Assembly (NCBI RefSeq): GCF_002074055.1
Contig: NZ_CP014619.1
Location: forward strand, 2,489,002-2,513,001
Length of the DNA stretch: 24,000 bases
From: Frondihabitans sp. 762G35
GTDB lineage: Bacteria > Actinomycetota > Actinomycetes > Actinomycetales > Microbacteriaceae
Reading direction: 5' to 3'
Below are positions 1,374 through 23,813 of this stretch, in pieces. The position numbers were made by a program, and so were the translations under genes. The notes beneath the pieces were generated by a model, which saw nothing but the letters and a program-made list of their open reading frames with translations, had not been told where the DNA came from and did not search any database. The stretch's first letter is position 1. Each line of letters starts with the position of its first letter.

Positions 1374-2081
1374 GTGAGCGCTCGTCAGCCGTTTCTGACC
1401 GCCCTGACGGCTCTCGCATCGGCCTCGGGGCCGTCCGACGACCTGTGCGGTCCGTTCCTCCTGGCGTTGCCCATCCGAGGCGCCGCACTGTCCACACTCG
1501 GCGATCCCCTGGGCAGCGCCACGGTGTGCTCCTCCGACCCTCGGGCGGCCGAGCTGGACGAGATCCAGCTCGACCTCGGGGAAGGACCGTGCTGGGACGC
1601 CCTGGCGACGGACTCCCCCATCCTGCTGTCGGACATCCAGACGTCCGCCGACGACCGCTGGACCTTCGCGTCCCCGGCCCTCCGCGAGACGGGACTCGAG
1701 GCGGTCTTCGCGTTCCCGCTCCGGTACGGGCGGCTCGGCCTCGGTGCGGTCGACCTCTACTCCGACGATCCGGTGCCGCTGAGCGACGACGACGTGGCCG
1801 ACGCGGCCACCCTCGCCGGGGTCGCGGCCCGCCAGGTCCTCCAGCGGGCGCTGCAGCGGCTCGACACGGTCGGCCAGGAGGCGGGAGCGGAGGGCGAGGA
1901 CGCCGTCGACGGATTCGCCCGACGGGAGATCCACCAGGCGACCGGCATGGTCTCGGCCCAGCTCGACATCTCGGTGCAGGATGCCCTGCTCGTCCTGCGC
2001 GGACACGCCTACGCCACCTCGGCCACCCTCCGCGAGGTCGCGGCCGACGTCGTGGCGCGGCGGCTCGACCTCGGCGACTGA
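1374..2081 (+). CDS. GAF-ANTAR RNA-binding regulator (paralog 1)
   Basis: 235 aa with a GTG start. The N-terminal GAF-like region carries the GEGPCWDA motif. The C-terminal ANTAR-like helices are REIHQATGMVSAQLDISVQDALLVLRGHAYATSATLREVAADVVARRL. Confidence 0.85.
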   Translation: MSARQPFLTALTALASASGPSDDLCGPFLLALPIRGAALSTLGDPLGSATVCSSDPRAAELDEIQLDLGEGPCWDALATDSPILLSDIQTSADDRWTFASPALRETGLEAVFAFPLRYGRLGLGAVDLYSDDPVPLSDDDVADAATLAGVAARQVLQRALQRLDTVGQEAGAEGEDAVDGFARREIHQATGMVSAQLDISVQDALLVLRGHAYATSATLREVAADVVARRLDLGD

Positions 2082-2162: not shown

Positions 2163-2876
2163 ATGACGGACACGACGCGAGAAACCGAGCTGCTCGAGAC
2201 GTTCGTCACGATGGCGGACTCTCTCGTGGTCGGCTTCGACATCCTCGATCTCCTCCAGACGCTGGTGGAGAAGACGACGAAGCTGTTCGACGCGGCCGAC
2301 GCGGGCATCATCCTCGCCAACACGCGCGGCGAGCTCGAGGTCATCGCCTCCACCAGCGAACGCAGCCGCCTGATCGGCCTGCTGCAGCTCGGGTCGGGCG
2401 CCGGTCCGTGCCTGGAGGCGTTCCAGACGGGCAGGGTCGTGTCGGCGACGTCCGTCGACCAGATGACGTCGAGGTGGTCGGTCTTCGCCGACGCCGCGCA
2501 GGAGTCCGGCTACCGCTCGGTCCACGCCATCCCGCTCCGGCTCCGCACCACGTCGCTCGGATCGCTCAACCTCTTCCGCGAGACCGAGGGCGTGCTCAAC
2601 GAGTCCGACGCCGCGGCCGCGCAGGCTCTCGCGGACGTCGCGACCATCAGCCTCCTGCAGGAGCGCACGCTCCGCGAGACCGATGTCGCCCGCGCGCAGC
2701 TGCAGCGCGCCCTCGACAGCCGCGTGGTGATCGAACAGGCCAAGGGCGTCATCTCGCAGCAGCATGGGATCGACATGGACGAGGCCTTCCGCCGGATCCG
2801 CGAGCACGCTCGGGCCTCGCGGACGCGCCTGGTGATCGTCGCGCAGGAGATCGTGGCGAGGCAGCTCACCCTCTGA
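2163..2876 (+). CDS. GAF-ANTAR RNA-binding regulator (paralog 2)
   Basis: 237 aa with an ATG start. GAF region contains GAGPCLEAFQTG. C-terminal ANTAR is VIEQAKGVISQQHGIDMDEAFRRIREHARASRTRLVIVAQEIVARQL. Confidence 0.9.
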   Translation: MTDTTRETELLETFVTMADSLVVGFDILDLLQTLVEKTTKLFDAADAGIILANTRGELEVIASTSERSRLIGLLQLGSGAGPCLEAFQTGRVVSATSVDQMTSRWSVFADAAQESGYRSVHAIPLRLRTTSLGSLNLFRETEGVLNESDAAAAQALADVATISLLQERTLRETDVARAQLQRALDSRVVIEQAKGVISQQHGIDMDEAFRRIREHARASRTRLVIVAQEIVARQLTL

Positions 2877-4783: not shown

Positions 4784-5968
4784 TCAGGCCGCGCGCCAGT
4801 CGAGCGACCCCTGCATGCTCGACGGGTAGGCGGAGGCGATGCGGTCGACGGCCTCCCGGAGCGTCTCGGGGGCGCAGGCGAGGTTCAGGCGGGCGAATCC
4901 CCGGCCCTGGGAGCCGAAGGCGAGCCCGGAGTTGAGGGCGACGTACGCGTGCTCGCGGAGCGCGGTGGCCGGGTCGTCGCCCAGGCCGATCCCGCGGAAG
5001 TCGAGCCAGGCCAGGTAGCCGGCGCGCGGACGGTGGTACACGACTCCGGGGAGGTGCTCTTTCAGGAGCCGGTCGAGCAGTCGGTCGTTCGCGACGATCT
5101 TGGCGACGGCGTCGTCGAGCCAGTCGGTACAGGAGAGCGCGGCTCGATTGGCGTGGAGCCCGAGGATGCTCGTGCGACAGGCGACCTCGTCGTTGAAGCG
5201 GTCGAGGAGCGCCGCCGTACGCTCGTCTCCGGCCACGACGACGGAGCACTTCACGCCGGCGAGGTTCCAGCCCTTGCTCGCGGACGTGACGACCACCGAT
5301 CGGGCTCCCGCCGCCTCGGCGATGGGCGCGAAGGGCGAGAAGACGGCGCCGGGGTGCGTCAGCGGTCCGTGGATCTCGTCGCTGATGACGAGCACGTCGT
5401 GGCGGGCCGCGAGCTCCGCGAGGGCCAGCAGGGTGTCGCGGTCGTGGACCAGTCCGAGCGGGTTGTGCGGGTTGCAGAGGAGGAACACGCCGACGCCCTC
5501 GGCGAAGGCACGCTCGAGGCCCTCCAGTTCGAGCGACCAGACGCCCCAGGTCTCCCGGAGCGGCACCTCGACGACAGCGGAGCGGGCCTCCTCGATCAGT
5601 TCGAAGAACGGCGGGTAGACGGGCGGGGTGATCGCGACGCGGCCGCCGTCGGGCAGCGCGAGGCGGAGTGTCTCGACGATGCCGACGCTGACGTCCGTGG
5701 CGATGTGCACGCGGGCGGGGTCGACCTGCCAGCCCCAGCGCGCCGAGGCGAACTCCGCGAAGGCGGGGGCGAGGGGGCCCGGGCCGTCGAGGTAGCCGAG
5801 GTCGGAGCTGCGGATCCGGGCGACGAGCTCATCGGCGATCGGCTGGGCGATGCCGTAGTCCATCTCCGCGACGAAGAGGGGCAGCACCTCCGGGGCGTAG
5901 CGCGTCCATTTGATCGAGGTGCGCTCCCCGCGGATGCTCTCGACCTCGTCGCTCGTGAACTCGGACAT
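4784..5968 (-). CDS. PatB/MalY-type PLP-dependent C-S lyase (class I/II aminotransferase fold; cystathionine beta-lyase-like)
   Basis: Start chosen at MSEFTSDEVESIRGERTSIKWTRY (ATG 5966-5968). Carries FVAEMDY, LLCNPHNPLG and the PLP-lysine motif SASKGWNLAG. The upstream 43 codons of the track ORF are Arg/Gly-rich with poor codon bias. Confidence 0.9.
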   Translation of the reverse strand: MSEFTSDEVESIRGERTSIKWTRYAPEVLPLFVAEMDYGIAQPIADELVARIRSSDLGYLDGPGPLAPAFAEFASARWGWQVDPARVHIATDVSVGIVETLRLALPDGGRVAITPPVYPPFFELIEEARSAVVEVPLRETWGVWSLELEGLERAFAEGVGVFLLCNPHNPLGLVHDRDTLLALAELAARHDVLVISDEIHGPLTHPGAVFSPFAPIAEAAGARSVVVTSASKGWNLAGVKCSVVVAGDERTAALLDRFNDEVACRTSILGLHANRAALSCTDWLDDAVAKIVANDRLLDRLLKEHLPGVVYHRPRAGYLAWLDFRGIGLGDDPATALREHAYVALNSGLAFGSQGRGFARLNLACAPETLREAVDRIASAYPSSMQGSLDWRAA

Positions 5969-6016
5969 GAGACGACGATGCCGCCTTTCTCCGCCGAGCG
6001 CCACTCCCCGCCCGCG

Positions 6017-6068
6017 GTGTGACACCGCGTGACGACCGACGCCGCTCACCGTGTGACACCGCGTGACG
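6017..6068. repeat. Two perfect 18-bp direct repeats (GTGTGACACCGCGTGACG) upstream of the C-S lyase gene
   Basis: Copies at 6017-6034 and 6051-6068 with a 34-bp period. They sit in the 132-bp gap between the ABC ATPase stop (6101) and the lyase start (5968). Confidence 0.9.
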
Positions 6069-6100
6069 CGGCACCGCCCGACCCAACGCCCTCCCACGGC

Positions 6101-6912
6101 TCAGCCCGCGTGCACCCGCGCCAGGAACTCCCGGGTCGCAGGATGCACGGGCGAGCCCAGCACCTGCTCCGGCGTCCCCTGCTCGGCGATCACGCCGCCG
6201 TGCAGGAAGATCACGCGGTCGGCGACCCGGCGGGCGAAGGACATCTCGTGCGTCGTCATGAGGATCGTGGATCCGGCCGCCTTGAGGTCGGCGACGAGAT
6301 CGAGCACCTCGCCGACGAGCTGCGGGTCGAGCGCGCTCGTGATCTCGTCGAGGAGCAGCAGCTCGGGGTCGCTCGCGATGGCGCGGACGATCGCGACACG
6401 CTGCTGCTGCCCGCCGGAGAGCCGGTCGGGGAACGCGGCTGTCTTGTCGCCCAGGCCGATCCGCTCGAGCCACCGCCGGGCGGTCGCCTCCGCCTCGGCG
6501 CGGGGCGTGCGGTGCACCTTGCGCGCCGCGAGGGTGACGTTGTCGAGGACCGACAGGTGCGGGAACAGGTTGAACTGCTGGAAGACGACGCCGATCCGGG
6601 CCCGCACCGCATCGACCGGGAGGCGCGGATCGGTGATGTCCTCGCCCTGCAGCAGGATCCTGCCGTCGTCGATCTGCTCGAGGAGGTTGACCGACTTCAG
6701 CAGCGTCGACTTGCCGGAGCCGCTCGCCCCGATCACGACGACGCACTCGTGGCGGCGGATCTCCAGGTCGATGCCGCCGAGCACGACGGTGTCGCCGTAG
6801 TACTTGACCAGGTTCTCGACGCGGAGGACGGCGGGCCGGGGCTCCTGCGCTCCGCTGCCTGCCGCAGAGGACCCGCCCGTCGGAGTCGACCCGCCCGTCG
6901 GAGTGGACCCGC

Positions 6913-6916
<4 letters not shown>
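6101..6916 (-). CDS. Polar amino acid ABC transporter, ATP-binding protein
   Basis: Walker A GASGSGKST, signature LSGGQQQRVAI and Walker B LLLLDEITSALD. The GTG start (6914-6916) overlaps the permease stop as GTGA. The N-terminal STPTGG x2 is low complexity. Confidence 0.9.
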
Positions 6917-7800
<884 letters not shown>

Positions 7801-7813
7801 GCTTCGGGCTGTG

Positions 7814-8659
7814 TCACTTCAGGACGGGCACGTCGACGCTGGTCGACAGCCACTTCTTCGTGAGCGCCTCGAGGTCGCCGTCGGCGCGGACGGCGTCGAC
7901 CGCCGCCGAGACCTTCGTCGTCAGAGCGGAGCCCTTCGGCAGGACGAAGGCGAACTGGTCGCCCCCCGCGGTGTCGGGGAACTGGCCGATCACCTTGCCG
8001 CCGTCGAGCTCGGCGCCGGCGAGGTAGAACGCGGTCGGGAGGTCGACGGCGAGCGCGTCCACCTGCCCGCTCTTGAGCGCCAGGACGGCGTCGTCGTTCG
8101 AGTTGAAGATCTTGGGGGTGACCCCCACGTCTTTCTTGACGACGTCGAGGCTCGTGGTTCCGGCGGCGACCCCGAGGGTGAGCTTCTTGAGCCCGGCGAT
8201 CGTGGTGACTCCGATGGCGGACGACTTCGCGTCGGTGACGATCGCCTGCGTGGTCGTGTAGTACGGCGACGAGAAGTCGACGGCCTTCTTGCGGTCGGTC
8301 GTGACGCTGAACTGCTGGAGGTTGACGTCGAAGTCCTTCGGGCCGGGCGCGATGGCGGCGTCGAAGGTGGTGCGCGTCCACACGACGTCCTCCTTGGCGA
8401 AGCCCAGCTTCGCGGCGACGGCGTACGCGACGGCCGCTTCGAAGCCCTGGCCCGACTGCGGCTTGTCGTCGATCACCCACGGCGAATAGGCGGGCTGGCC
8501 CGTGGCCACCGTGAACTTGCCCGGCGTGACGGTGTCGAGGCCGCCCGACGACGACGAGGCGGCGGGCGCGGCGGAGCTGCAGGCGCTGAGCGCGAGCAGG
8601 GCCGCGGCGGCGGCGAGCGCAGCGGCGGTGCGCAGGATGCGGGGGCGGGGCAGCGACAC
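7814..8659 (-). CDS. Polar amino acid ABC transporter substrate-binding lipoprotein (SBP_bac_3-like)
   Basis: Start placed at GTG 8657-8659, with GGAAGG about 7 nt upstream. N-terminus is VSLPRPRILRTAAALAAAAALLALSAC, a signal peptide with an LSAC lipobox. The body is typical of type-3 amino-acid binding proteins. The track ORF's upstream extension to 9073 is rejected. Confidence 0.85.
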   Translation of the reverse strand: MSLPRPRILRTAAALAAAAALLALSACSSAAPAASSSSGGLDTVTPGKFTVATGQPAYSPWVIDDKPQSGQGFEAAVAYAVAAKLGFAKEDVVWTRTTFDAAIAPGPKDFDVNLQQFSVTTDRKKAVDFSSPYYTTTQAIVTDAKSSAIGVTTIAGLKKLTLGVAAGTTSLDVVKKDVGVTPKIFNSNDDAVLALKSGQVDALAVDLPTAFYLAGAELDGGKVIGQFPDTAGGDQFAFVLPKGSALTTKVSAAVDAVRADGDLEALTKKWLSTSVDVPVLK

Positions 8660-8849
8660 GGGAGCACCTTCCAGGGGAGTGGACCCTTGGATCCTAGGAG
8701 ACCGGCGCACCGGTCGCGAACCCGGCCGCAATGTGACGCCGCGAGTCGGCGGGATTCGCGACCCCGCCCTCGCCCCGGCACGCTGGAAGGCAACCGAAGC
8801 CATCGCCGATCCGCCGCCACCGCGGATCCGCAGCCACCACAGAACCGCA

Positions 8850-8890
8850 GCCACCGGGCCGCCACCGAGCGGCCACCGGGCCGCCACCGA
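8850..8890. repeat. Two perfect 19-bp direct repeats (GCCACCGGGCCGCCACCGA) in the metQ 5' region
   Basis: Copies at 8850-8868 and 8872-8890 with a 22-bp period. The second ends 16 nt before the metQ ATG (8907). Confidence 0.9.
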
Positions 8891-8906
8891 CGAAAGGGAC
8901 ACACCC

Positions 8907-9863
8907 ATGTCCACCACCACCCCGGGCGGAACCGCGCCCCAGCTCCCGCCCCGCGCGACGAACCGTCGCCCCCTCGTCATCGGGATCGTCGTCGCCGTCG
9001 TGATCATCGCCGTCGTCGCGGTGTTCCTCGTCGTCAACCGCAGCTCCGCCTCCACCGCCCAGGGCGCGGGCAAGACCGTCTCGATCGGCGTCGCCGACGC
9101 GTCGGAGCCCTACTGGAAGACGTACCAGGCCCTCGCGAAGGAGAAGCTCGGCGTGACGGTCAAGCTCGTCAACTTCTCCGACTACAGCCAGCCGAACCCG
9201 GCGCTCAGCCAGGGCCAGACCGACCTCAACGAGTTCCAGCACATCCAGTACCTGGCCAACTACAACGTCACCTCGAGCGACGACCTGCAGCCGATCGGCG
9301 CCACCGCCGTCTACCCGCTCCCCCTCTACTCGACGAAGTACAAGGAGGCGTCGGCCCTCCCCGAGGGCGCCAAGGTCGCCGTTCCGAACGACGCCGTCAA
9401 CGAGGCGCGCGGGCTCCTGGTCCTCCAGTCGGCCGGTCTCCTGAAGCTGAAGGACGGCGGCACCGCCTTCTCGACGGTGACCGACATCGTCAGCGAGAAG
9501 ATCGCCGTCACGACGCTCGACGCCTCACAGACGGCCGGGGCCCTTCAGGCCGGCTCGGTCGACGCCGCGATCGTCAACCAGAACTACGCCACCCAGGCGG
9601 GCCTCGCGAAGACCGACGCGATCTTCAAGGACGACCCCGCGTCGTCGAGCGCCGCCCCCTACGTCAACGTCTTCGTGGCCCAGAAGAAGGACGCCACGAA
9701 CGAGCTCTACCTGAAGCTCGCCGACCTCTACCACACCGCCAGCGTCGAGAAGGGCGTGCAGGAGGCCAACGCCGGCACCGCGGTCTTCCGGAGCACCTCG
9801 GCCGCCGACCTCCAGAAGGAGCTCGCCACCGTCGAGGCGGACGCCAAGGCGGCCGCGAAGTAG
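8907..9863 (+). CDS. metQ: Methionine ABC transporter substrate-binding protein (MetQ/NlpA family)
   Basis: 318 aa from ATG 8907. It has an N-terminal membrane anchor (RRPLVIGIVVAVVIIAVVAVFLVV) followed by an NlpA-like body (NFSDYSQPNPALSQGQTDLNEFQHIQYL). AAAGGGA lies upstream. The stop TAG overlaps the metN GTG by 1 nt. Confidence 0.9.
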   Translation: MSTTTPGGTAPQLPPRATNRRPLVIGIVVAVVIIAVVAVFLVVNRSSASTAQGAGKTVSIGVADASEPYWKTYQALAKEKLGVTVKLVNFSDYSQPNPALSQGQTDLNEFQHIQYLANYNVTSSDDLQPIGATAVYPLPLYSTKYKEASALPEGAKVAVPNDAVNEARGLLVLQSAGLLKLKDGGTAFSTVTDIVSEKIAVTTLDASQTAGALQAGSVDAAIVNQNYATQAGLAKTDAIFKDDPASSSAAPYVNVFVAQKKDATNELYLKLADLYHTASVEKGVQEANAGTAVFRSTSAADLQKELATVEADAKAAAK

Positions 9864-10897
9864 TGGCGGAGAAGCCCGCCCTCGTCCGTCTGGACGGCGT
9901 CACCAAGGCGTACGACACCCCGGCCGGGCGCCGGGTGGCCGTCGACGACGTGACCCTGGAGGTCCGGGAGGGCGAGATCCTCGGTGTCATCGGCTACTCC
10001 GGCGCCGGGAAGTCGACCCTCGTGCGGCTCATCAACGCCCTGGAGCTCCCCACCTCCGGGCGCGTGTTCGTCGGCGACAGCGAGCTGACGGCGCTACCGG
10101 AGCGGAAGCTCCGCGAGGTGCGCCAGGGCATCGGCATGATCTTCCAGCAGTTCAACCTGTTCCGCTCCCGGACGGTGGCCGGGAACGTCGCCTACCCGCT
10201 GCGGGTCGCCGGCGTGCCGAAGGCCGAGCGGGACGCGCGGACGGCCGAGCTGCTCGACTTCGTCGGGCTGCTCGACCGGGCGCACAGCTACCCGGAGCAG
10301 CTGTCGGGGGGCCAGAAGCAGCGCGTCGGGATCGCGCGGGCGCTCGCGACCAGCCCGCGGCTCCTGCTGGCCGACGAGGCCACGAGTGCCCTCGACCCGG
10401 AGACCACCGGCGACGTGCTGGCCCTGCTCCGCCGCGTCAACCGCGACCTCGGTGTGACCGTCGTCGTCATCACGCACGAGATGGACGCGATCCGGGCCAT
10501 CGCCGACCGCGTGGCCGTCATGGACGAGGGGCGCGTCGTCGAGCACGGCCCCGTCTACGACGTCTTCTCGAAGCCGTCGACCGCGGCGGCGGGCCGGTTC
10601 GTGCGGTCGGTCCTGCAGGATCGGCCCTCCCGCGACACCGTGGATCGCCTGCGCCGGTCCCACAACGGCCGCATCGCCACGATCCAGGTCGCGGAGATCA
10701 AGGGCTTCATCGGGGTCCTGTCCGAGATCTTCACCCGCCACGGCGTCACGACGGAGCTCGTCTTCGGCGGCATCAGCGAGCTGCAGGAGCGGCCCATCGG
10801 CGCCCTGACCTACGAGCTCACGGGGCCCGACGACCGCATCGACAGCGCCCTCGCCGACCTCACCGCCCGATCGATCACCTGGACCGAGGAGCACTGA
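9863..10897 (+). CDS. metN: Methionine ABC transporter ATP-binding protein with C-terminal NIL domain
   Basis: Starts VAEKPALVRLDGVTKAY. Walker A GYSGAGKST, signature LSGGQKQRVGIARAL and Walker B LLLADEATSALD. A NIL-like C-terminal domain of about 100 aa follows. This is only the last 345 codons of the 1108-aa track ORF. Confidence 0.9.
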   Translation: MAEKPALVRLDGVTKAYDTPAGRRVAVDDVTLEVREGEILGVIGYSGAGKSTLVRLINALELPTSGRVFVGDSELTALPERKLREVRQGIGMIFQQFNLFRSRTVAGNVAYPLRVAGVPKAERDARTAELLDFVGLLDRAHSYPEQLSGGQKQRVGIARALATSPRLLLADEATSALDPETTGDVLALLRRVNRDLGVTVVVITHEMDAIRAIADRVAVMDEGRVVEHGPVYDVFSKPSTAAAGRFVRSVLQDRPSRDTVDRLRRSHNGRIATIQVAEIKGFIGVLSEIFTRHGVTTELVFGGISELQERPIGALTYELTGPDDRIDSALADLTARSITWTEEH

Positions 10898-10898
10898 G

Positions 10899-11558
10899 AT
10901 GGACTTCTTCCTGAGCAACGTCGACGTGTTCGTCCGGGCCATCTTCGAGACGCTCTTCATGGTCTTCGTCTCGATGATCGCGGCCGGGATCCTCGGGCTC
11001 GCCCTGGGCATCGGGCTCTACGTCACCCGGCCGGGCAACCTCCTGTCGAACCGCGGGCTGTTCACGACGCTCAACGTCGTCGTCAACATCATCCGGCCGA
11101 TCCCGTTCGTGATCTTCCTCGCGGCCATCCAGCCGCTCACCAGCTCGGTGATCGGCACCACCATCGGCCCGAGCGCCGCGGCGTTCGCCCTCTCGCTGGC
11201 GGCCGCGTTCGCCGTCTCGCGCATCGTGGAGCAGAGCCTCGTGGGAGTCGACCCGGGGGTCATCGAGGCGGCCCGCGCGGTCGGGGCGAGCCCCGTGCGG
11301 ATCATCTTCACGGTCTTGATCCCCGAGGGACTCGGGCCGCTGATCCTGGGTTACTCGTTCATCTTCGTCGGCATCGTCGACATGTCCGCCCAGGCGGGCA
11401 TCATCGGCGGCGGCGGCCTCGGCGACTTCGCCATCGCGTACGGCTCGCAGCGCTACAACTACACGGTGGTCTACATCACGGTCGCCGTCATCGTGGTGCT
11501 GGTGCAGCTCGGGCAGTTCTTCGGCAACTACCTGGCGCGCAAGGCGCTGCGCCGCTGA
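10899..11558 (+). CDS. metI: Methionine ABC transporter permease
   Basis: 219 aa starting 1 nt after the metN stop. Contains the EAA loop VIEAARAVGASPVRIIFTVLIPEG and has 5 TM helices. Confidence 0.9.
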   Translation: MDFFLSNVDVFVRAIFETLFMVFVSMIAAGILGLALGIGLYVTRPGNLLSNRGLFTTLNVVVNIIRPIPFVIFLAAIQPLTSSVIGTTIGPSAAAFALSLAAAFAVSRIVEQSLVGVDPGVIEAARAVGASPVRIIFTVLIPEGLGPLILGYSFIFVGIVDMSAQAGIIGGGGLGDFAIAYGSQRYNYTVVYITVAVIVVLVQLGQFFGNYLARKALRR

Positions 11559-11583
11559 GTCGCGGGGTCGAACTCCGCCGCAG

Positions 11584-11625
11584 GGACGACCCCGTCTCCC
11601 TCTCCGGAGGGGCGACGGGTCGTCC
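11584..11625 (+). terminator. Strong imperfect hairpin after metI (putative intrinsic terminator, no clear U-tail)
   Basis: GGACGACCCCGTCTCCCTC-tccg-GAGGGGCGACGGGTCGTCC gives about 17 bp of pairing with two single-nt bulges or mismatches. It begins 26 nt after the metI stop. Confidence 0.4.
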
Positions 11626-11647
11626 TTCGTCTCCGTACCGTGAGGGC

Positions 11648-12220
11648 ATGACCGCGATCCCGACGAAGACGACGACGCCCCGCTGGTACTCGGAGACTCC
11701 GCGGGGCGCCCTGCGGGCGATCGTGGTCGTCCTCGTCGGAAGCGCCCTGATCGGCGGGCTGACCAGCCCGGCCCAGCAGTACCTGCCCGAGGCCGTCCGC
11801 TCCCTCGCGAACTCCGCCGGGGGGTGGAGCATGTTCGCGTTCCTCCTCGTCTGGGCGTCGCGGGCCCGACCGCTGCTGGGCGCCGTCCTCGGGGCGGTCT
11901 CCTTCCTGCTGATGGTGGAGGCCTACGGCGTCGTCAGCCTCTGGCGCGGTTTCTTCTTCGCCGAGCCGTTCTCCTCCTCCTGGACGCCCATCGCGCTGGT
12001 CGCCGGCCCGGTGTTCGGTCTCGCGGCGGCGTTCGTCCGGCACTCCGACCATCGGTGGCTGCGGGTCGCGGGCGTCGCGGTGCTGAGCCTCGCGCTCGTC
12101 GCCGAGGCGGCCTTCGGCCTGACGGTGGTCCGCGACACGACGAGCCCCGTCTACTGGCTCCTGGAGCTCGCCGCCGCGATCGCCTTCGTCGCCCTGGCTC
12201 TCCTCCGCCCTCGTCCCTAG
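11648..12220 (+). CDS. Hypothetical integral membrane protein (5-6 TM helices)
   Basis: 190 aa with alternating hydrophobic helices and good GC3 bias. I recognise no catalytic motif. The start is uncertain because the SD spacing is poor. Confidence 0.6.
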   Translation: MTAIPTKTTTPRWYSETPRGALRAIVVVLVGSALIGGLTSPAQQYLPEAVRSLANSAGGWSMFAFLLVWASRARPLLGAVLGAVSFLLMVEAYGVVSLWRGFFFAEPFSSSWTPIALVAGPVFGLAAAFVRHSDHRWLRVAGVAVLSLALVAEAAFGLTVVRDTTSPVYWLLELAAAIAFVALALLRPRP

Positions 12221-12255
12221 CCCGTAGCCCGCTCCCGCTCCCGCGCCCGCGCCCG

Positions 12256-12630
12256 CGAGTGGACAGGTGTCGACGCTCCCGGGCGCAGAAACGTCACCAA
12301 GTGTCCACTCGGGGTGGGGGGGTGGGGCGCGGGAGCCGCGCGGGCCGTGGCCGGGGCTCCTGCGCCCCGCGCGAGTGGACAGGTGCCGACGCTCCCCGGC
12401 GCAGAAACGTCGCTGAGCGTCCACTCGGGGTGGGGGTGGGGGGTGGGGCGCCGGAGCCGCGCGGGCCGTGGCCGTGGCTCCTGCGCCCCGCGCGAGTGGA
12501 CAGGTGTCGACGCTCCCGGGCGCGGAAACGTCGACGAACGTCCACTCGCGGTGGGGGTGCCGGAGCCGAGGGCGCGAGTGGACAGGTGTCGACGGTCCGG
12601 GGCGTGGAGACGTCGACGAGCGTCCACTCG
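12256..12630. repeat. Array of four 56-bp palindromic elements (A) interleaved with G-run tracts and a second hairpin (B); tandem unit about 116-121 bp
   Basis: A units are at 12256-12311, 12372-12427, 12493-12548 and 12575-12630. Each is CGAGTGGAC-N38-GTCCACTCG with an inner GTCGACG/CGTCGAC-type stem. B hairpins are at 12324-12368 and 12445-12489 (GGGGCGCGGGAGCC...GGCTCCTGCGCCCC). The array lies between convergent gene ends (12220 and 12679). Confidence 0.9.
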
Positions 12631-12678
12631 GGGAGGGGGACGGCGGGGGCGGGGACGGGGCGAGGCGGGGGGGTCGCG

Positions 12679-13398
12679 TCAGGAGGCGAAGCCGTCGGAG
12701 AGCACGGGCTCGCCCGCGCGCTGCCGCTCCAGGAAGAGCACGATCGACGCGGCCACGGTCCGGCGGGAGTCGCCGTTCAGCACGCGGTGGTCGCCCCGCT
12801 GCACCACGCGCACGGCGCCGAAGGGGAGCTGCGTCGCCCAGCTCGCCGCGTCCGCGACGTCGGTGACGTCGTCGGTGTTCCCGTGGAAGACGAGGCTGGG
12901 CAGGAGGATCGTGCGCGGCTGGGGCAGGACCACCCCGTCGGGCAGGCGCCCGCCGGCACCCACGCCGGCACGACCGCCGGCACCAACGCCAGCACCTCCG
13001 ACCGCACCACCGCGCAGCCCGCCGACGACGGCCGCGTCCGCGGCGCGCGACGCCGACGTGACGAGCCCGGCCAGCACGAGCGCCACGAGTCCCACCGGTC
13101 GCGCCGCCGCGATCTGTGCGGCGAGGGTGGCTCCGACGTCCGATCCGACGAGGACGTGGGGGTGCCTCGTCGTGGTGCTCGACACGGCCCGCAGCACGCC
13201 GATCCGCGCGGACTCCGGGTCGAGCGAGACGTCGTCGAAGGCCTCCACGCGGAACCCCGCGAGGGTGAGCTGGTCGATCAGGAGGCCGAAGTCGGCGGCC
13301 GACTCCCCCGATCCTGCGAGCAGGACGACGGTGCCGCGCTCCTCCCCGCGCGGTCGACCGACGTGGTCGGGCAGCGAGCCGGTGCGGAGAAAGGTCAC
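12679..13398 (-). CDS. Alpha/beta-fold hydrolase
   Basis: 239 aa with a GTG start. Nucleophile elbow VGSDVG (G-x-S-x-G), then later HGNTDD and GDHRV as candidate Asp/His. A Gly/Ala-rich insertion is present (GGAVGGAGVGAGGRAGVGAGGR). Confidence 0.7.
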   Translation of the reverse strand: MTFLRTGSLPDHVGRPRGEERGTVVLLAGSGESAADFGLLIDQLTLAGFRVEAFDDVSLDPESARIGVLRAVSSTTTRHPHVLVGSDVGATLAAQIAAARPVGLVALVLAGLVTSASRAADAAVVGGLRGGAVGGAGVGAGGRAGVGAGGRLPDGVVLPQPRTILLPSLVFHGNTDDVTDVADAASWATQLPFGAVRVVQRGDHRVLNGDSRRTVAASIVLFLERQRAGEPVLSDGFAS

Positions 13399-23706: not shown

Positions 23707-23783
23707 GGGTCGCGGCCGGGTCACGGCCGGGTCGCGGCCGGGTCGCGGCCGGGTCACGGCCGGGTCGCGGCCGGGCCGCAGCC
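23707..23783. repeat. 11-bp tandem repeat (6 full units plus 1 degenerate) upstream of the LCP gene
   Basis: GGGTCGCGGCC and GGGTCACGGCC units start at 23707, 23718, 23729, 23740, 23751 and 23762 in the pattern A-B-A-A-B-A, i.e. a 33-bp unit x2. A degenerate GGGCCGCAGCC unit follows at 23773. Confidence 0.9.
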
Positions 23784-23813
23784 CGGCCGGCAACCCGGCC
23801 GCAGCCCGGCCGG
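23768..23813 (-). terminator. GC-rich hairpins just downstream of the partial minus-strand CDS (putative terminator)
   Basis: Hairpin 23768-23789 has a 9-bp stem CGGCCGGGC/GCCCGGCCG with a CGCA loop. A second, weaker hairpin lies at 23795-23813. The 17-mer GGCCGCAGCCCGGCCGG repeats at 23774-23790 and 23797-23813. Confidence 0.35.

What the first reader, a model, noticed from the sequence alone, without database searches (positions are those of the whole stretch)
12221..12678. Roughly 460-bp array of alternating hairpin repeats between convergent genes (REP/BIME-like or a structured RNA)
Four elements of exactly 56 bp share the form CGAGTGGAC-N38-GTCCACTCG. They lie at 12256-12311, 12372-12427, 12493-12548 and 12575-12630.

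Each folds the same way: a 9-bp outer stem, a 3-4 nt internal loop, a 5-7 bp inner stem built on GTCGACG/CGTCGAC, and a 16-nt apical loop (CTCCCGGGCGCAGAAA-like).

Between the elements are G-run tracts and a second, unrelated 14-bp-stem hairpin: GGGGCGCGGGAGCC-N17-GGCTCCTGCGCCCC at 12324-12368 and 12445-12489. The higher-order tandem unit is 116-121 bp, and the third unit is truncated to 82 bp.

A C-run tract lies on the left (12221-12255) and a G-run tract on the right (12630-12673). The array fills the whole gap between two convergent CDS, so it could be any of:
- a stacked bidirectional terminator or transcriptional insulator
- a REP/BIME-like genome-wide repeat, possibly linked to a RAYT-type transposase encoded elsewhere
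- a structured ncRNA
- a protein-binding array

I know of no described repeat family with this sequence.
Basis: seen in the sequence. Interest (0 to 1): 0.7.

Follow-up and report, generated by a model that had tools for sequence, protein, structure and literature searches.

The report
Palindromic repeat array, REP-like, in Actinobacteria
The gap between two convergent genes holds a non-coding stack of four copies of a 56-base palindrome, and in other Actinobacteria this palindrome family is scattered behind genes and brackets a DUF559-type nuclease gene, much as REP elements pair with their transposase in E. coli.

Summary
Four exact CGAGTGGAC-N38-GTCCACTCG elements, two copies of a second 45-nt hairpin, and G- and C-runs fill the 458-bp non-coding gap between a DUF6518 gene and an alpha/beta-hydrolase gene of Frondihabitans sp. 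762G35.

The array is a locally amplified minisatellite with units of 116, 121 and 82 bp. A related metagenome contig keeps it at the same locus. Relatives in which the hydrolase is followed directly by another gene lack it.

The 56-mer belongs to an apparently undescribed family of 56-59-nt palindromes in high-GC Actinobacteria. The outer stem is conserved and the inner stem covaries. Members usually sit 2-50 nt after stop codons.

The main new result concerns Flexivirga caeni and one metagenome contig. There, two palindromes of this sequence type bracket a gene for an AbiEi-like/DUF559 (Vsr-fold) nuclease. Four homologous genes in Arthrobacter and Tsukamurella are each bracketed by their own 60-66-nt palindromes. 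For three of these four palindrome types, solo copies are scattered through the same genome, where located in convergent gaps or just after stop codons.

This is REP/RAYT logic with a different enzyme. At this locus the hairpins most likely act as tail-less 3' stem-loops that terminate or insulate transcription. No such gene lies in the 24-kb window.

The parts
11648..12220 (+). Left flanking gene, DUF6518 membrane protein. Its stop codon lies 36 nt before hairpin 1.
   Evidence: Pfam PF20128 at E 1e-46. 100% identical to Frondihabitans sp. 762G35 AS850_12010.
12221..12255 (+). C-rich, G-poor tract (C=22, G=9) that + strand transcripts meet first. It is also a degenerate right arm of hairpin B and pairs with the G-run after hairpin 1.
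   Evidence: (I1, D2).
12256..12311 (-). 56-nt palindrome copy 1 (CGAGTGGAC...GTCCACTCG). It folds better on the - strand (-32.7 against -25.9 kcal/mol; 3 G.U against 1).
12312..12323 (+). G-run 1. Together with the start of hairpin B1 it forms a G-quadruplex motif on the + strand.
   Evidence: All three + strand G4 motifs of the 24-kb window lie in this array.
12324..12368 (.). Hairpin B copy 1, with a 14-bp stem (GGGGCGCGGGAGCC/GGCTCCTGCGCCCC).
   Evidence: -38.7 kcal/mol on the + strand and -33.7 on the - strand.
12372..12427 (-). 56-nt palindrome copy 2. The - strand folds at -31.4 kcal/mol with 4 G.U; the + strand at -26.4.
12428..12444 (+). G-run 2 (G4 motif).
12445..12489 (.). Hairpin B copy 2.
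   Evidence: -35.9 kcal/mol on the + strand and -33.3 on the - strand.
12493..12548 (-). 56-nt palindrome copy 3. The - strand folds at -38.5 kcal/mol with a 13-bp inner stem and a tetraloop; the + strand at -32.9.
12549..12574 (.). Shortened spacer. It keeps a short G-run and the left arm of hairpin B; the rest of B is deleted, which gives the 82-bp unit.
12575..12630 (.). 56-nt palindrome copy 4, the most diverged copy. The + strand folds at -33.2 kcal/mol and the - strand at -30.0.
12631..12678 (-). Tract that is G-rich on the + strand (G=35, C=8). On the - strand it is the C-rich, largely unstructured leader that hydrolase transcripts meet first. It is a G4 motif on the + strand.
   Evidence: the - strand folds at only -3.1 kcal/mol.
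12679..13398 (-). Right flanking gene, an alpha/beta hydrolase (Hydrolase_4). Its stop codon lies 49 nt from hairpin 4.
   Evidence: 100% identical to AS850_12015.

Best explanation
The gap is a non-coding cluster of REP-like palindromes that grew on the spot by tandem duplication. The unit is the 56-nt palindrome, a G-run and the 45-nt hairpin B. One unit later lost hairpin B.

The 56-nt palindrome belongs to a family of 56-59-nt elements found in several orders of high-GC Actinobacteria. The outer stem, (GAT)CGAGTGGACAG...CTGTCCACTCG(ATC), is conserved in sequence. The inner stem is conserved only as a structure.

Where a cognate gene is seen in other genomes, two palindromes of this same type bracket a gene for a protein with an AbiEi-like DNA-binding N-terminus and a DUF559/Vsr-fold nuclease C-terminus. 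Further solo copies sit just behind stop codons of unrelated housekeeping genes.

I therefore read the family as the dispersed partner of that nuclease gene, spread or maintained by it. This is the logic of REP elements and RAYT, but with a different enzyme.

At this locus the copies are solo. Their local effect is most likely at RNA level. Each of the two convergent transcripts first crosses a C-rich, G-poor, unstructured tract that resembles a Rho-loading site. It then meets very stable stem-loops without U-tracts. These end or insulate transcription and protect the 3' end, chiefly for the hydrolase mRNA on the - strand.

Shown:
- the anatomy and the non-coding nature of the gap
- conservation at the orthologous locus
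- family membership and covariation
- the bracket of palindromes around the gene in 6 of 6 loci
- solo dispersal of three of the four palindrome types tested, with located copies behind stop codons

Inferred:
- that the nuclease acts on the palindromes
- that Frondihabitans encodes such a gene
- the termination role
For: Anatomy and non-coding nature.

Orthologous locus.
- L007 carries metI then DUF6518 (83% aa identity). A C-run and the same palindrome follow the stop codon, and a second copy starts 85 nt later, where the contig ends.
- In L048 and L049 another gene follows the hydrolase after 13 and 86 bp, and there is no such palindrome.
- In L051 the same hydrolase is followed by a different 58-nt, 26-bp hairpin (-59 kcal/mol).

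The family.
- A window-derived pattern with 23 specified bases hit only 2 of 185,579 species genomes, both Actinobacteria.
- Metagenome hits in high-GC contigs cluster at 55-59 nt although 48-70 nt was allowed. They also share unselected features, GTCG at positions 14-17 and ATC flanks.
- L024 has 3 copies in 7 kb, L001 has 2 in 8 kb and L002 has 3 in 8 kb.

Covariation on 20 members, using a symmetric gapless alignment.
- 82% of cells are paired, against 64.8% in shuffles (0 of 500 shuffles reach it) and 30-39% when the partner is slid.
- 16 of 25 pairs change on both sides.
- The covariation score is 0.401 against 0.116.

Position: members lie 2-50 nt after stop codons of unrelated genes such as rsmB, mutY-like and a carboxyltransferase.

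Strand. Window copies 1-3 and L007 have 3-6 G.U pairs on the - strand against 0-1 on the + strand.

Gene link, same sequence type.
- L002: a 287-aa gene at 6641-7504 on the - strand, with palindromes at 7594-7650 and 6568-6624.
- L024: a 320-aa gene at 5411-6373, with palindromes at 5196-5251 and 6405-6460.
- The two proteins are 33% identical (E 6e-14).

Gene link, other sequence types. Homologues in Arthrobacter (three loci) and Tsukamurella are each bracketed by their own 60-66-nt palindromes.

Solo copies of these gene-flanking types.
- Tsukamurella: about 10 sites in 8 genome pieces. The three sites I located lie in two convergent gaps and 8 nt after a stop codon.
- Arthrobacter StoSoilB13: at least 20 sites of one type and about 5 of the other, positions not examined because the records carry almost no annotation.

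The protein.
- DUF559 lies above the Pfam cut-off in L002, and 14 of 19 members hit it.
- PADLOC AbiEi models match the N-terminal part at E down to 6e-11.
- PDB 3hrl, a DUF559 protein, matches at E 1.4e-6, with a weak match to a mobile-intron protein.

Termination role.
- There is no T-tract terminator in the gap.
- PMC13613805 reports that actinobacterial 3'-end stem-loops have long stems, often lack U-rich tails, and have the highest Rho-dependency scores.
- C-rich 5' flanks recur in the family.
Against: - No DUF559-like gene lies in the 24-kb window (tblastn). I could not read the rest of the Frondihabitans genome.
- No second locus of the palindrome was found in the window or in about 85 kb of other Microbacteriaceae loci. 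In this lineage the element may be confined to this array.
- The link between the window copies and the gene-flanking copies rests on a shared outer stem of 9-15 nt, equal length and equal architecture. The searches that found the relatives required that stem. I also chose which metagenome hits to count as family members partly because they fold.
- Only six gene loci from five genomes were examined.
- Nothing shows that the nuclease binds or cuts the palindromes. Palindromes on both sides of a possibly toxic gene could simply be insulating terminators.
- Termination and transcription at this locus are untested.
- Hairpin B and copy 4 fold slightly better on the + strand.
Confidence: 0.55

Rival explanations
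1. Locally evolved bidirectional terminator or insulator only. The hairpins arose in place between the convergent genes. Their resemblance to hairpins elsewhere is an artefact of searching huge databases for a palindromic 20-mer among the many long terminator hairpins of Actinobacteria.
For: - The position in a convergent gap, and a C-rich tract ahead of the hairpins in both directions.
- Long stem-loops without U-tails are the norm at actinobacterial 3' ends (PMC13613805).
- In a hairpin only about 11 of the 20 pattern bases are independent. By my own estimate, a few chance hits are therefore expected in the metagenome scan.
- L051 has an unrelated hairpin behind the same hydrolase gene.
Against: - Several copies sharing the stem occur within single short contigs: L024 has 3, L001 has 2 and L002 has 3.
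- Lengths cluster at 55-59 nt although 48-70 nt was allowed, and unselected positions are shared.
- Copies at 82-88% identity are dispersed in Tsukamurella.
- The same palindrome lies on both sides of the DUF559 gene in 6 of 6 loci.
Confidence: 0.15
2. Classical REP/BIME or REPIN elements mobilised by a RAYT (Y1, IS200/IS605-type) transposase encoded elsewhere in the genome.
For: They are dispersed extragenic palindromes behind genes. REP clusters reiterated in tandem together with flanking DNA are described (PMC3733652).
Against: - No Y1 transposase is present in the window or next to any family member examined.
- The gene actually flanked by the palindromes has a PD-(D/E)xK-type fold.
- The element is 56 nt, not 20-40 nt. 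It has no conserved GTAG or CGTC tag, and the copies are in direct rather than alternating orientation.
- The REP survey I read lists no Actinobacteria.
Confidence: 0.05
3. A DNA-level protein-binding array. The repeated GTGGACA/TGTCCAC motif matches 7 of 9 positions of the actinobacterial DnaA box TTGTCCACA (from my own knowledge). The array would titrate or position a DNA-binding protein such as DnaA, a nucleoid protein or gyrase, as BIMEs do.
For: - There are eight GTCCAC hexamers within 375 bp.
- Some relatives carry extra direct half-arms or 9-nt-periodic GTGGAC runs: L024, L020 and L052.
- A perfect TTATCCACA lies between the upstream palindrome and the DUF559 gene in four loci and nowhere else in the held loci.
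Against: - The ninth base of the box is T, not A, in almost every member (19 of 20), and conservation extends beyond the box (ACTCG).
- Inner-stem covariation and the G.U strand bias point to a folded single strand rather than a duplex site.
- No binding data exist.
Confidence: 0.08
4. A neutral minisatellite left at a rearrangement junction. On this view the array has no function and is just an unstable palindromic repeat.
For: - The array lies at one edge of a 6.6-kb block (two ABC transporters plus DUF6518) that the syntenic relative L048 lacks.
- Unit structure differs between the window and L007.
- One unit shows a palindrome-type deletion.
Against: - The hairpin is kept across a divergence of 83% aa identity, with changes that preserve or extend pairing on the - strand. 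L007 has 23 bp with 6 G.U on the - strand against 18 bp on the + strand.
- Family-wide covariation is strong.
Confidence: 0.1
5. An independently transcribed structured small RNA or riboregulator.
For: Strong folding with z = -6.7 and -7.6, and a G.U bias for one strand.
Against: - No Rfam family matches even at E<=10.
- No promoter-like site is found.
- Family members occur behind unrelated genes and in either orientation relative to them.
- The repeats are near-perfect palindromes without conserved loops.
Confidence: 0.03

Closest known systems
REP/BIME elements and REPINs with their RAYT (Y1) transposase (E. coli, Pseudomonas, Stenotrophomonas)
   Same: - Both are imperfect palindromes dispersed in extragenic DNA, mostly just behind genes and in convergent gaps.
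- Clusters can be reiterated in tandem together with flanking DNA.
- A single gene is flanked on both sides by the cognate palindrome.
- Different gene paralogues in one genome each have their own palindrome type, as in Arthrobacter StoSoilB13.
   Different: - The flanked gene encodes an AbiEi-like plus DUF559/Vsr-fold (PD-(D/E)xK) protein, not a HUH/Y1 transposase.
- The palindromes are 56-66 nt rather than 20-40 nt.
- There is no GTAG or CGTC tag.
- Copies in the window array are all direct.
- The hosts are Actinobacteria.
- Copy number in the source genome is unknown and appears low in this lineage.
Tail-less 3'-end stem-loops and Rho-dependent terminators of Actinobacteria
   Same: - Both are long G+C-rich stems without a U-tract, placed shortly after stop codons and in tail-to-tail gaps.
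- A C-rich, G-poor tract lies upstream on each incoming transcript.
- PMC13613805 describes this as typical of the phylum.
   Different: - Ordinary terminators are not sequence families. Here the same palindrome recurs within and between genomes and brackets a specific gene.
- Four copies plus two further hairpins are stacked at this locus.
MIRU-VNTR-type intergenic minisatellites of mycobacteria
   Same: Both are tandem intergenic units of tens to about 120 bp, and the organisation varies between relatives (window against L007).
   Different: From my own knowledge, MIRUs are not palindromic hairpins and sit between co-directional operon genes, with small overlapping ORFs.
Vsr/DUF559-fold nucleases, including EDxHD homing endonucleases of mobile introns (PDB 3r3p) and the DUF559 protein 3hrl
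   Same: The C-terminal domain of the palindrome-flanked protein matches DUF559 (Pfam), MTES_1575 and 3hrl. It carries an invariant D...E-Y-D-G-x-x-H...D...R signature. The fold includes selfish homing enzymes (PMC3424549).
   Different: These genes are free-standing, are fused to an AbiEi-like domain, and lie between two whole palindromes rather than inside an intron. No activity has been shown.
AbiEi antitoxins of type IV toxin-antitoxin systems
   Same: The N-terminal part matches PADLOC AbiEi models at E down to 6e-11. From my own knowledge, AbiEi proteins bind inverted repeats in their own promoter.
   Different: There is no AbiEii toxin partner next to the gene, and the C-terminal domain is a nuclease fold.

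Membership tests
REP/BIME (RAYT-associated) | An imperfect palindrome of about 20-40 nt. | tested here: not met
   The element is 56 nt. Relatives are 53-66 nt.
REP/BIME (RAYT-associated) | A conserved GTAG or CGTC tetranucleotide at one end. | tested here: not met
   The ends are (GAT)CGAGTGGAC. No GTAG or CGTC is conserved at the foot. The definition is from PMC3733652.
REP/BIME (RAYT-associated) | High copy number dispersed through the genome. | tested here: inconclusive
   There is one locus in the 24-kb window and none in about 85 kb of related Microbacteriaceae loci. Other Actinobacteria carry 2-3 copies per 7-8 kb. The source genome could not be scanned.
REP/BIME (RAYT-associated) | A Y1 (RAYT) transposase gene flanked by the repeats. 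| tested here: not met
   There is no Y1 gene in the window or beside any member. The gene that is flanked is DUF559-type. The whole genome was not testable.
REP/BIME (RAYT-associated) | Alternating orientation of REPs within a BIME cluster. | tested here: not met
   All four copies are direct repeats in register (family D1).
Intrinsic (Rho-independent) terminator | A G+C-rich hairpin followed by a U-tract. | tested here: not met
   Hairpins are present, but no T-run follows on either strand. The terminator scan finds none in the gap.
Actinobacterial tail-less 3' stem-loop / Rho-dependent terminator | A long stem without a U-tail, downstream of a stop codon or in a tail-to-tail gap. | tested here: met
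   The class description is from PMC13613805.
Actinobacterial tail-less 3' stem-loop / Rho-dependent terminator | A C-rich, G-poor, unstructured tract on the transcript near the termination site. | tested here: met
   The + strand RNA tract 12221-12255 has C=22 and G=9. The - strand RNA tract 12678-12631 has C=35 and G=8 and folds at -3.1 kcal/mol. This is composition only.
Actinobacterial tail-less 3' stem-loop / Rho-dependent terminator | Mapped transcript 3' ends and dependence on Rho. | not testable with these tools
   This needs Term-seq with and without bicyclomycin or Rho depletion.
CRISPR array | 24-48-nt repeats separated by unique spacers, with cas genes nearby. | tested here: not met
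   The repeats are 56 nt and the 'spacers' are themselves repeated. No cas gene is present in the window.
Known RNA families (Rfam 15) | A covariance-model match. | tested here: not met
   There are 0 hits at gathering score and only chance-level hits at E<=10.
Palindrome family CGAGTGGACAG...CTGTCCACTCG (defined here) | A 55-59-nt hairpin with this outer stem and a covarying inner stem, in intergenic DNA after a stop codon. | tested here: met
Palindrome family CGAGTGGACAG...CTGTCCACTCG (defined here) | A cognate AbiEi/DUF559 gene bracketed by two copies in the same genome. | not testable with these tools
   This is seen in L002 and L024.

The most novel reading that the evidence does not exclude
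High-GC Actinobacteria carry a second, independent REP/RAYT-like partnership. In it, a single-copy gene for an AbiEi-like plus DUF559 (Vsr/EDxHD-fold) nuclease sits between two copies of a 56-66-nt palindrome and is responsible for spreading or maintaining that palindrome type through the genome. The palindromes are then co-opted as 3'-end stem-loops. On this reading, the Frondihabitans array is a product of this system, or the empty tandem-palindrome site of such a gene.
Probability: 0.35. Interest if true: 0.8.

Novelty: new variant of a known kind. Interest (0 to 1): 0.65.

Why it matters
Dispersed palindromes with a cognate enzyme (REP/RAYT) are known mainly from Proteobacteria, and the REP survey I read lists no Actinobacteria.

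If the link found here holds, it has three consequences.
- A large, uncharacterised family of actinobacterial 'DUF559/endonuclease domain-containing' proteins gains a concrete DNA partner and a testable function.
- It would explain why some of the long tail-less stem-loops at actinobacterial gene ends are sequence families rather than independent terminators.
- It would be a case of a PD-(D/E)xK-type nuclease, rather than a HUH transposase, associated with a REP-like repeat population.

There is also a practical point. These palindromes break short-read assemblies. L007 ends inside a copy, and many homologue contigs are only 1-2.5 kb long.

Tried and rejected
- Rfam at gathering score and at E<=10 gave nothing.
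- BLAST of the array against plasmids and phages gave nothing. The L024 consensus against plasmids gave only chance hits.
- The viral-contig pattern scan gave nine hits, with at most partial inner pairing; I judged them chance matches from the sequence, without folding them or calling ORFs. A viral scan for the DUF559-like protein found no relative.
- Full-text searches for six sequence strings returned only unrelated primers. Searches for DUF559 together with palindromes found no description.
Two window proteins and P0001 are not on record in the contig index. A guessed plasmid accession does not exist in the collection.
- Synteny through other DUF6518 homologues (L003, L008, L044, L046) led to unrelated contexts.
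- A MAFFT alignment of whole hairpins misaligned the inner stems, and RNAalifold saw only the outer stem. I replaced it with a gapless symmetric alignment.
- A free-energy threshold alone does not pick out these elements in DNA of 70% or more G+C. The scan returned 54 'hairpins' in the window, many of them inside genes.
- Hypotheses rejected:
  - CRISPR: the spacers are repeated and there is no cas gene.
  - A coding sequence: there is no GC3 signal.
  - A target of the ANTAR regulators encoded 10 kb away. I judged this from memory of the ANTAR dual-hexaloop motif, not by a test.
  - An integron attC site and a hammerhead ribozyme. Both were rejected on recalled core motifs that are absent.
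- tblastn of a Rathayibacter homologue and of the L024 protein against plasmids found nothing.
Full report
**1. The observation**

The window is high-GC (0.70-0.77). It comes from Frondihabitans sp. 762G35 (Microbacteriaceae): both genes next to the array are 100% identical to AS850_12010 and AS850_12015.

The pattern CGAGTGGAC-N-GTCCACTCG occurs exactly four times, at the stated coordinates. None of 100 shuffles gave a match. Spacings are 116, 121 and 82 bp, and TRF reports a 121-bp period. The second hairpin, the C-run and the G-runs are all as described.

The flanking ORFs are real convergent genes: DUF6518 at E 1e-46, and a Hydrolase_4 protein. The 458-bp gap is non-coding. GC is 0.78/0.79/0.78 at the three codon positions in every frame, against GC3 of 0.91-0.95 in the neighbouring genes. 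The unit lengths are not multiples of three.

On the - strand the apex pairs further through G.U pairs, giving a 13-bp inner stem and a tetraloop in copy 3.

**2. Local history**

L007 is a metagenome contig with the same metI-DUF6518 synteny and 83% aa identity. Behind its stop codon lie a C-run and the same palindrome. A second copy starts 85 nt later, and the contig ends inside it. Its - strand folds with 23 bp, 6 of them G.U, at -34.7 kcal/mol. Its + strand folds at -22.3 kcal/mol.

Window copies 1-3 show the same bias, with 3-4 G.U pairs on the - strand against 1 on the + strand. The - strand is the sense strand of the hydrolase gene.

In relative L048 (hydrolase 63% identical) the order is coaBC, TANGO2, hydrolase, aminotransferase, and only 13 bp follow the hydrolase. 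The window therefore carries an extra block of about 6.6 kb (6098-12678) between these two genes, holding two ABC transporter sets, DUF6518 and the array. The array sits at the edge of that block.

L049 also lacks the element. L051 has a different hairpin behind the same hydrolase: 58 nt, 26 bp, -59 kcal/mol.

The 82-bp unit is a 121-bp unit that has lost most of hairpin B.

**3. A wider family**

A tight, window-derived pattern found two hits among 185,579 species genomes: a Jiangellales MAG (L001) and Flexivirga caeni (L002). By my own rough estimate, about 0.1-0.2 hits were expected by chance.

A looser pattern found 26 metagenome contigs. The high-GC hits are clean hairpins of 55-59 nt although 48-70 nt was allowed. 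They share unselected features: GTCG at positions 14-17, ATC/GAT flanks, and in several an apical GCGACACGCCGGCGTGTCGC.

Single short contigs hold several copies. L024 has 3 in 7 kb plus extra half-arms, L001 has 2 in 8 kb and L002 has 3 in 8 kb. These are therefore repeats, not independent terminators.

To measure covariation I joined the first 25 and the last 25 nt of each of 20 members with an artificial AAAA loop. This forces a gapless, symmetric alignment. On it, 82% of cells pair, against 64.8% in shuffles (0 of 500 shuffles reach it) and 30-39% when the partner is slid. Sixteen of 25 pairs change on both sides, and the covariation score is 0.401 against 0.116.

Two caveats apply. The outer nine pairs were required by the searches. 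I also chose which metagenome hits to count as family members partly because they fold.

Members lie 2-50 nt after the stop codons of unrelated housekeeping genes. Their 5' flanks tend to be C-rich and their 3' flanks G-rich.

No further copy exists in the window or in about 85 kb of other Microbacteriaceae loci.

**4. What the family is linked to**

In L024, the ORF between palindromes b and c is a 320-aa protein with weak DUF559/MTES_1575 hits.

There, a 287-aa gene at 6641-7504 on the - strand has a palindrome 90 nt upstream of its start (7594-7650). A second palindrome of the same type and orientation lies 16 nt after its stop (6568-6624). My exact pattern had missed this one because it has one mismatch.

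The four homologues found in the plasmid collection show the same bracket, each with its own palindrome sequence:
- Arthrobacter sp. ERGS1:01 (L052)
- Arthrobacter sp. StoSoilB13, two paralogues (L053 and L054)
- Tsukamurella tyrosinosolvens (L055), where 64-nt palindromes abut the start and stop codons

That makes 6 of 6 genes, from five genomes.

The gene-flanking palindrome types are themselves dispersed as solo copies.
- Tsukamurella has about 10 sites in eight genome pieces at 82-88% identity. The three I located lie in two convergent gaps and 8 nt after a stop codon.
- StoSoilB13 has at least 20 sites of one type and about 5 of the other. Their positions were not examined, because the records carry almost no annotation.

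The protein has two parts.
- The N-terminal part is AbiEi-like, matching PADLOC models at E down to 6e-11.
- The C-terminal part is DUF559/MTES_1575. L002 scores above the Pfam cut-off, and 14 of 19 members hit it. It matches the DUF559 structure 3hrl at E 1.4e-6 and, weakly, a mobile-intron protein. The alignment has invariant D, E, H, D and R positions.

Homologues are annotated only as 'DUF559/endonuclease domain-containing protein'. They occur in Flexivirga, Rudaeicoccus, Arsenicicoccus, Rathayibacter, Microbacterium and Naasia, and many sit on contigs of 1-2.5 kb.

I found no paper describing this association. One survey lists DUF559 proteins as enriched among genes with predicted inversion-type inverted repeats (PMC9881135).

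**5. Mechanism**

What is shown is the anatomy, the family, the bracket around the gene, and the solo dispersal.

I infer REP/RAYT-like logic: a gene-encoded DNA-binding nuclease spreads or maintains its cognate palindrome. In Frondihabitans the four copies are solo elements amplified in tandem.

Their likely local effect is at RNA level. There is no U-tract. Each incoming transcript first crosses a C-rich, G-poor tract and then meets very stable stem-loops. According to PMC13613805, long tail-less stem-loops with high Rho dependence typify actinobacterial 3' ends.

I rank this composite reading at 0.55. The rivals are a purely local terminator, a RAYT-driven REP, a DNA-binding array, neutral junk and an sRNA. 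They are weighed in their own sections.

**6. Verdict**

The REP-like reading is right in spirit, but the partner enzyme appears to be different, and the ncRNA reading is not supported.

Relative to REP/RAYT this is a new variant of a known kind.

The weakest link is that no DUF559-type gene was seen in the 24 kb available, and the rest of the source genome could not be read.

Noticed in passing
window 6098-12678, compared with L048 10001-11900: Relative to a syntenic Frondihabitans-like contig, the window has about 6.6 kb extra between the hydrolase and aminotransferase genes. The block holds an ABC ATPase with its permease, metQ/N/I and DUF6518. The palindrome array sits at the edge of this block, and gene order here differs in every relative examined (L048, L049, L051).
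   Followed up: partly
L002 7557, L052 2936, L053 2946, L054 2947; L024 about 5350: A perfect TGTGGATAA/TTATCCACA (the E. coli-type DnaA box) lies between the upstream palindrome and the start of the DUF559-type gene in four loci. L024 has ATATCCACA instead. The exact 9-mer occurs nowhere else in any locus held or in the window. Its orientation relative to the gene differs between Flexivirga and Arthrobacter.
   Followed up: partly
window 12311, 12427, 12630 (+ strand); 12254 (- strand): All three + strand G-quadruplex motifs (four G3+ runs) of the 24-kb window lie in the array, each directly after a palindrome. One of the five - strand motifs is the left C-run. Each strand therefore reads as a palindrome followed by a G4 motif.
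   Followed up: partly
L017 1720-1889: A different tandem array lies in an activated-sludge actinobacterial contig. It has three 48-nt palindromes, GCTACGTCGCAGTAAGTG...CCTACTGCGACGTAGC, spaced 61 nt apart, with GCTAC/GTAGC ends reminiscent of GTAG-tagged REPs.
   Followed up: no
L034 2263-2326 and 3430-3493; L054 5619-5684: Further long palindrome families occur in actinobacterial loci. L034 has two 64-nt copies of CGTT(G/C)TTCTTACCGGTGTGGTCGCT.... A solo copy of the L053-type palindrome lies 1.7 kb from the L054 gene.
   Followed up: no
L024 5170-5195 and 2075-2095; L052 2810-2880; L020 6562-6626: Extra direct half-arms lie next to some palindromes. Examples are CCAGTGGACACTTCCTGCCGG before two L024 copies and three direct arms before the L052 upstream palindrome. 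One hairpin is built from 9-nt-periodic GTGGAC units. This looks like iterated protein-binding sites or slippage.
   Followed up: no
window 1374-2081 and 2163-2876 (+): Two adjacent GAF-ANTAR regulator genes (RNA-binding antiterminators) are conserved next to ABM and MFS genes in L048 too. No link to the array was found.
   Followed up: partly
window 6019-6067: A direct repeat of TGTGACACCGCGTGACG, two copies 38 nt apart, lies between the ABC ATPase stop and the aminotransferase start. It could be an operator. On the - strand it folds at -37.8 kcal/mol.
   Followed up: no
window 23707-23812: A tandem 11-mer (GGGTCGCGGCC, 7 copies, continuing as CGCAGCCCGGC) lies just upstream of the LytR_cpsA_psr gene. 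It is the strongest 64-nt fold in the window at -62 kcal/mol.
   Followed up: no
window 12950-13026 (inside the hydrolase gene): A 12/24-nt tandem repeat encodes a Gly/Ala/Val-rich insert (GGAVGGAGVGAGGRAGVGAGG). It makes this hydrolase about 20-35 aa longer than its Frondihabitans homologues.
   Followed up: no
L051 6655-6714: A 58-nt hairpin of 26 bp (-59 kcal/mol) lies 40 nt behind the orthologous hydrolase in another relative. Its outer stem is unrelated, but it shares GGACGCGACAC / GTGTCGCGTCC with L001 and L024 family members.
   Followed up: partly
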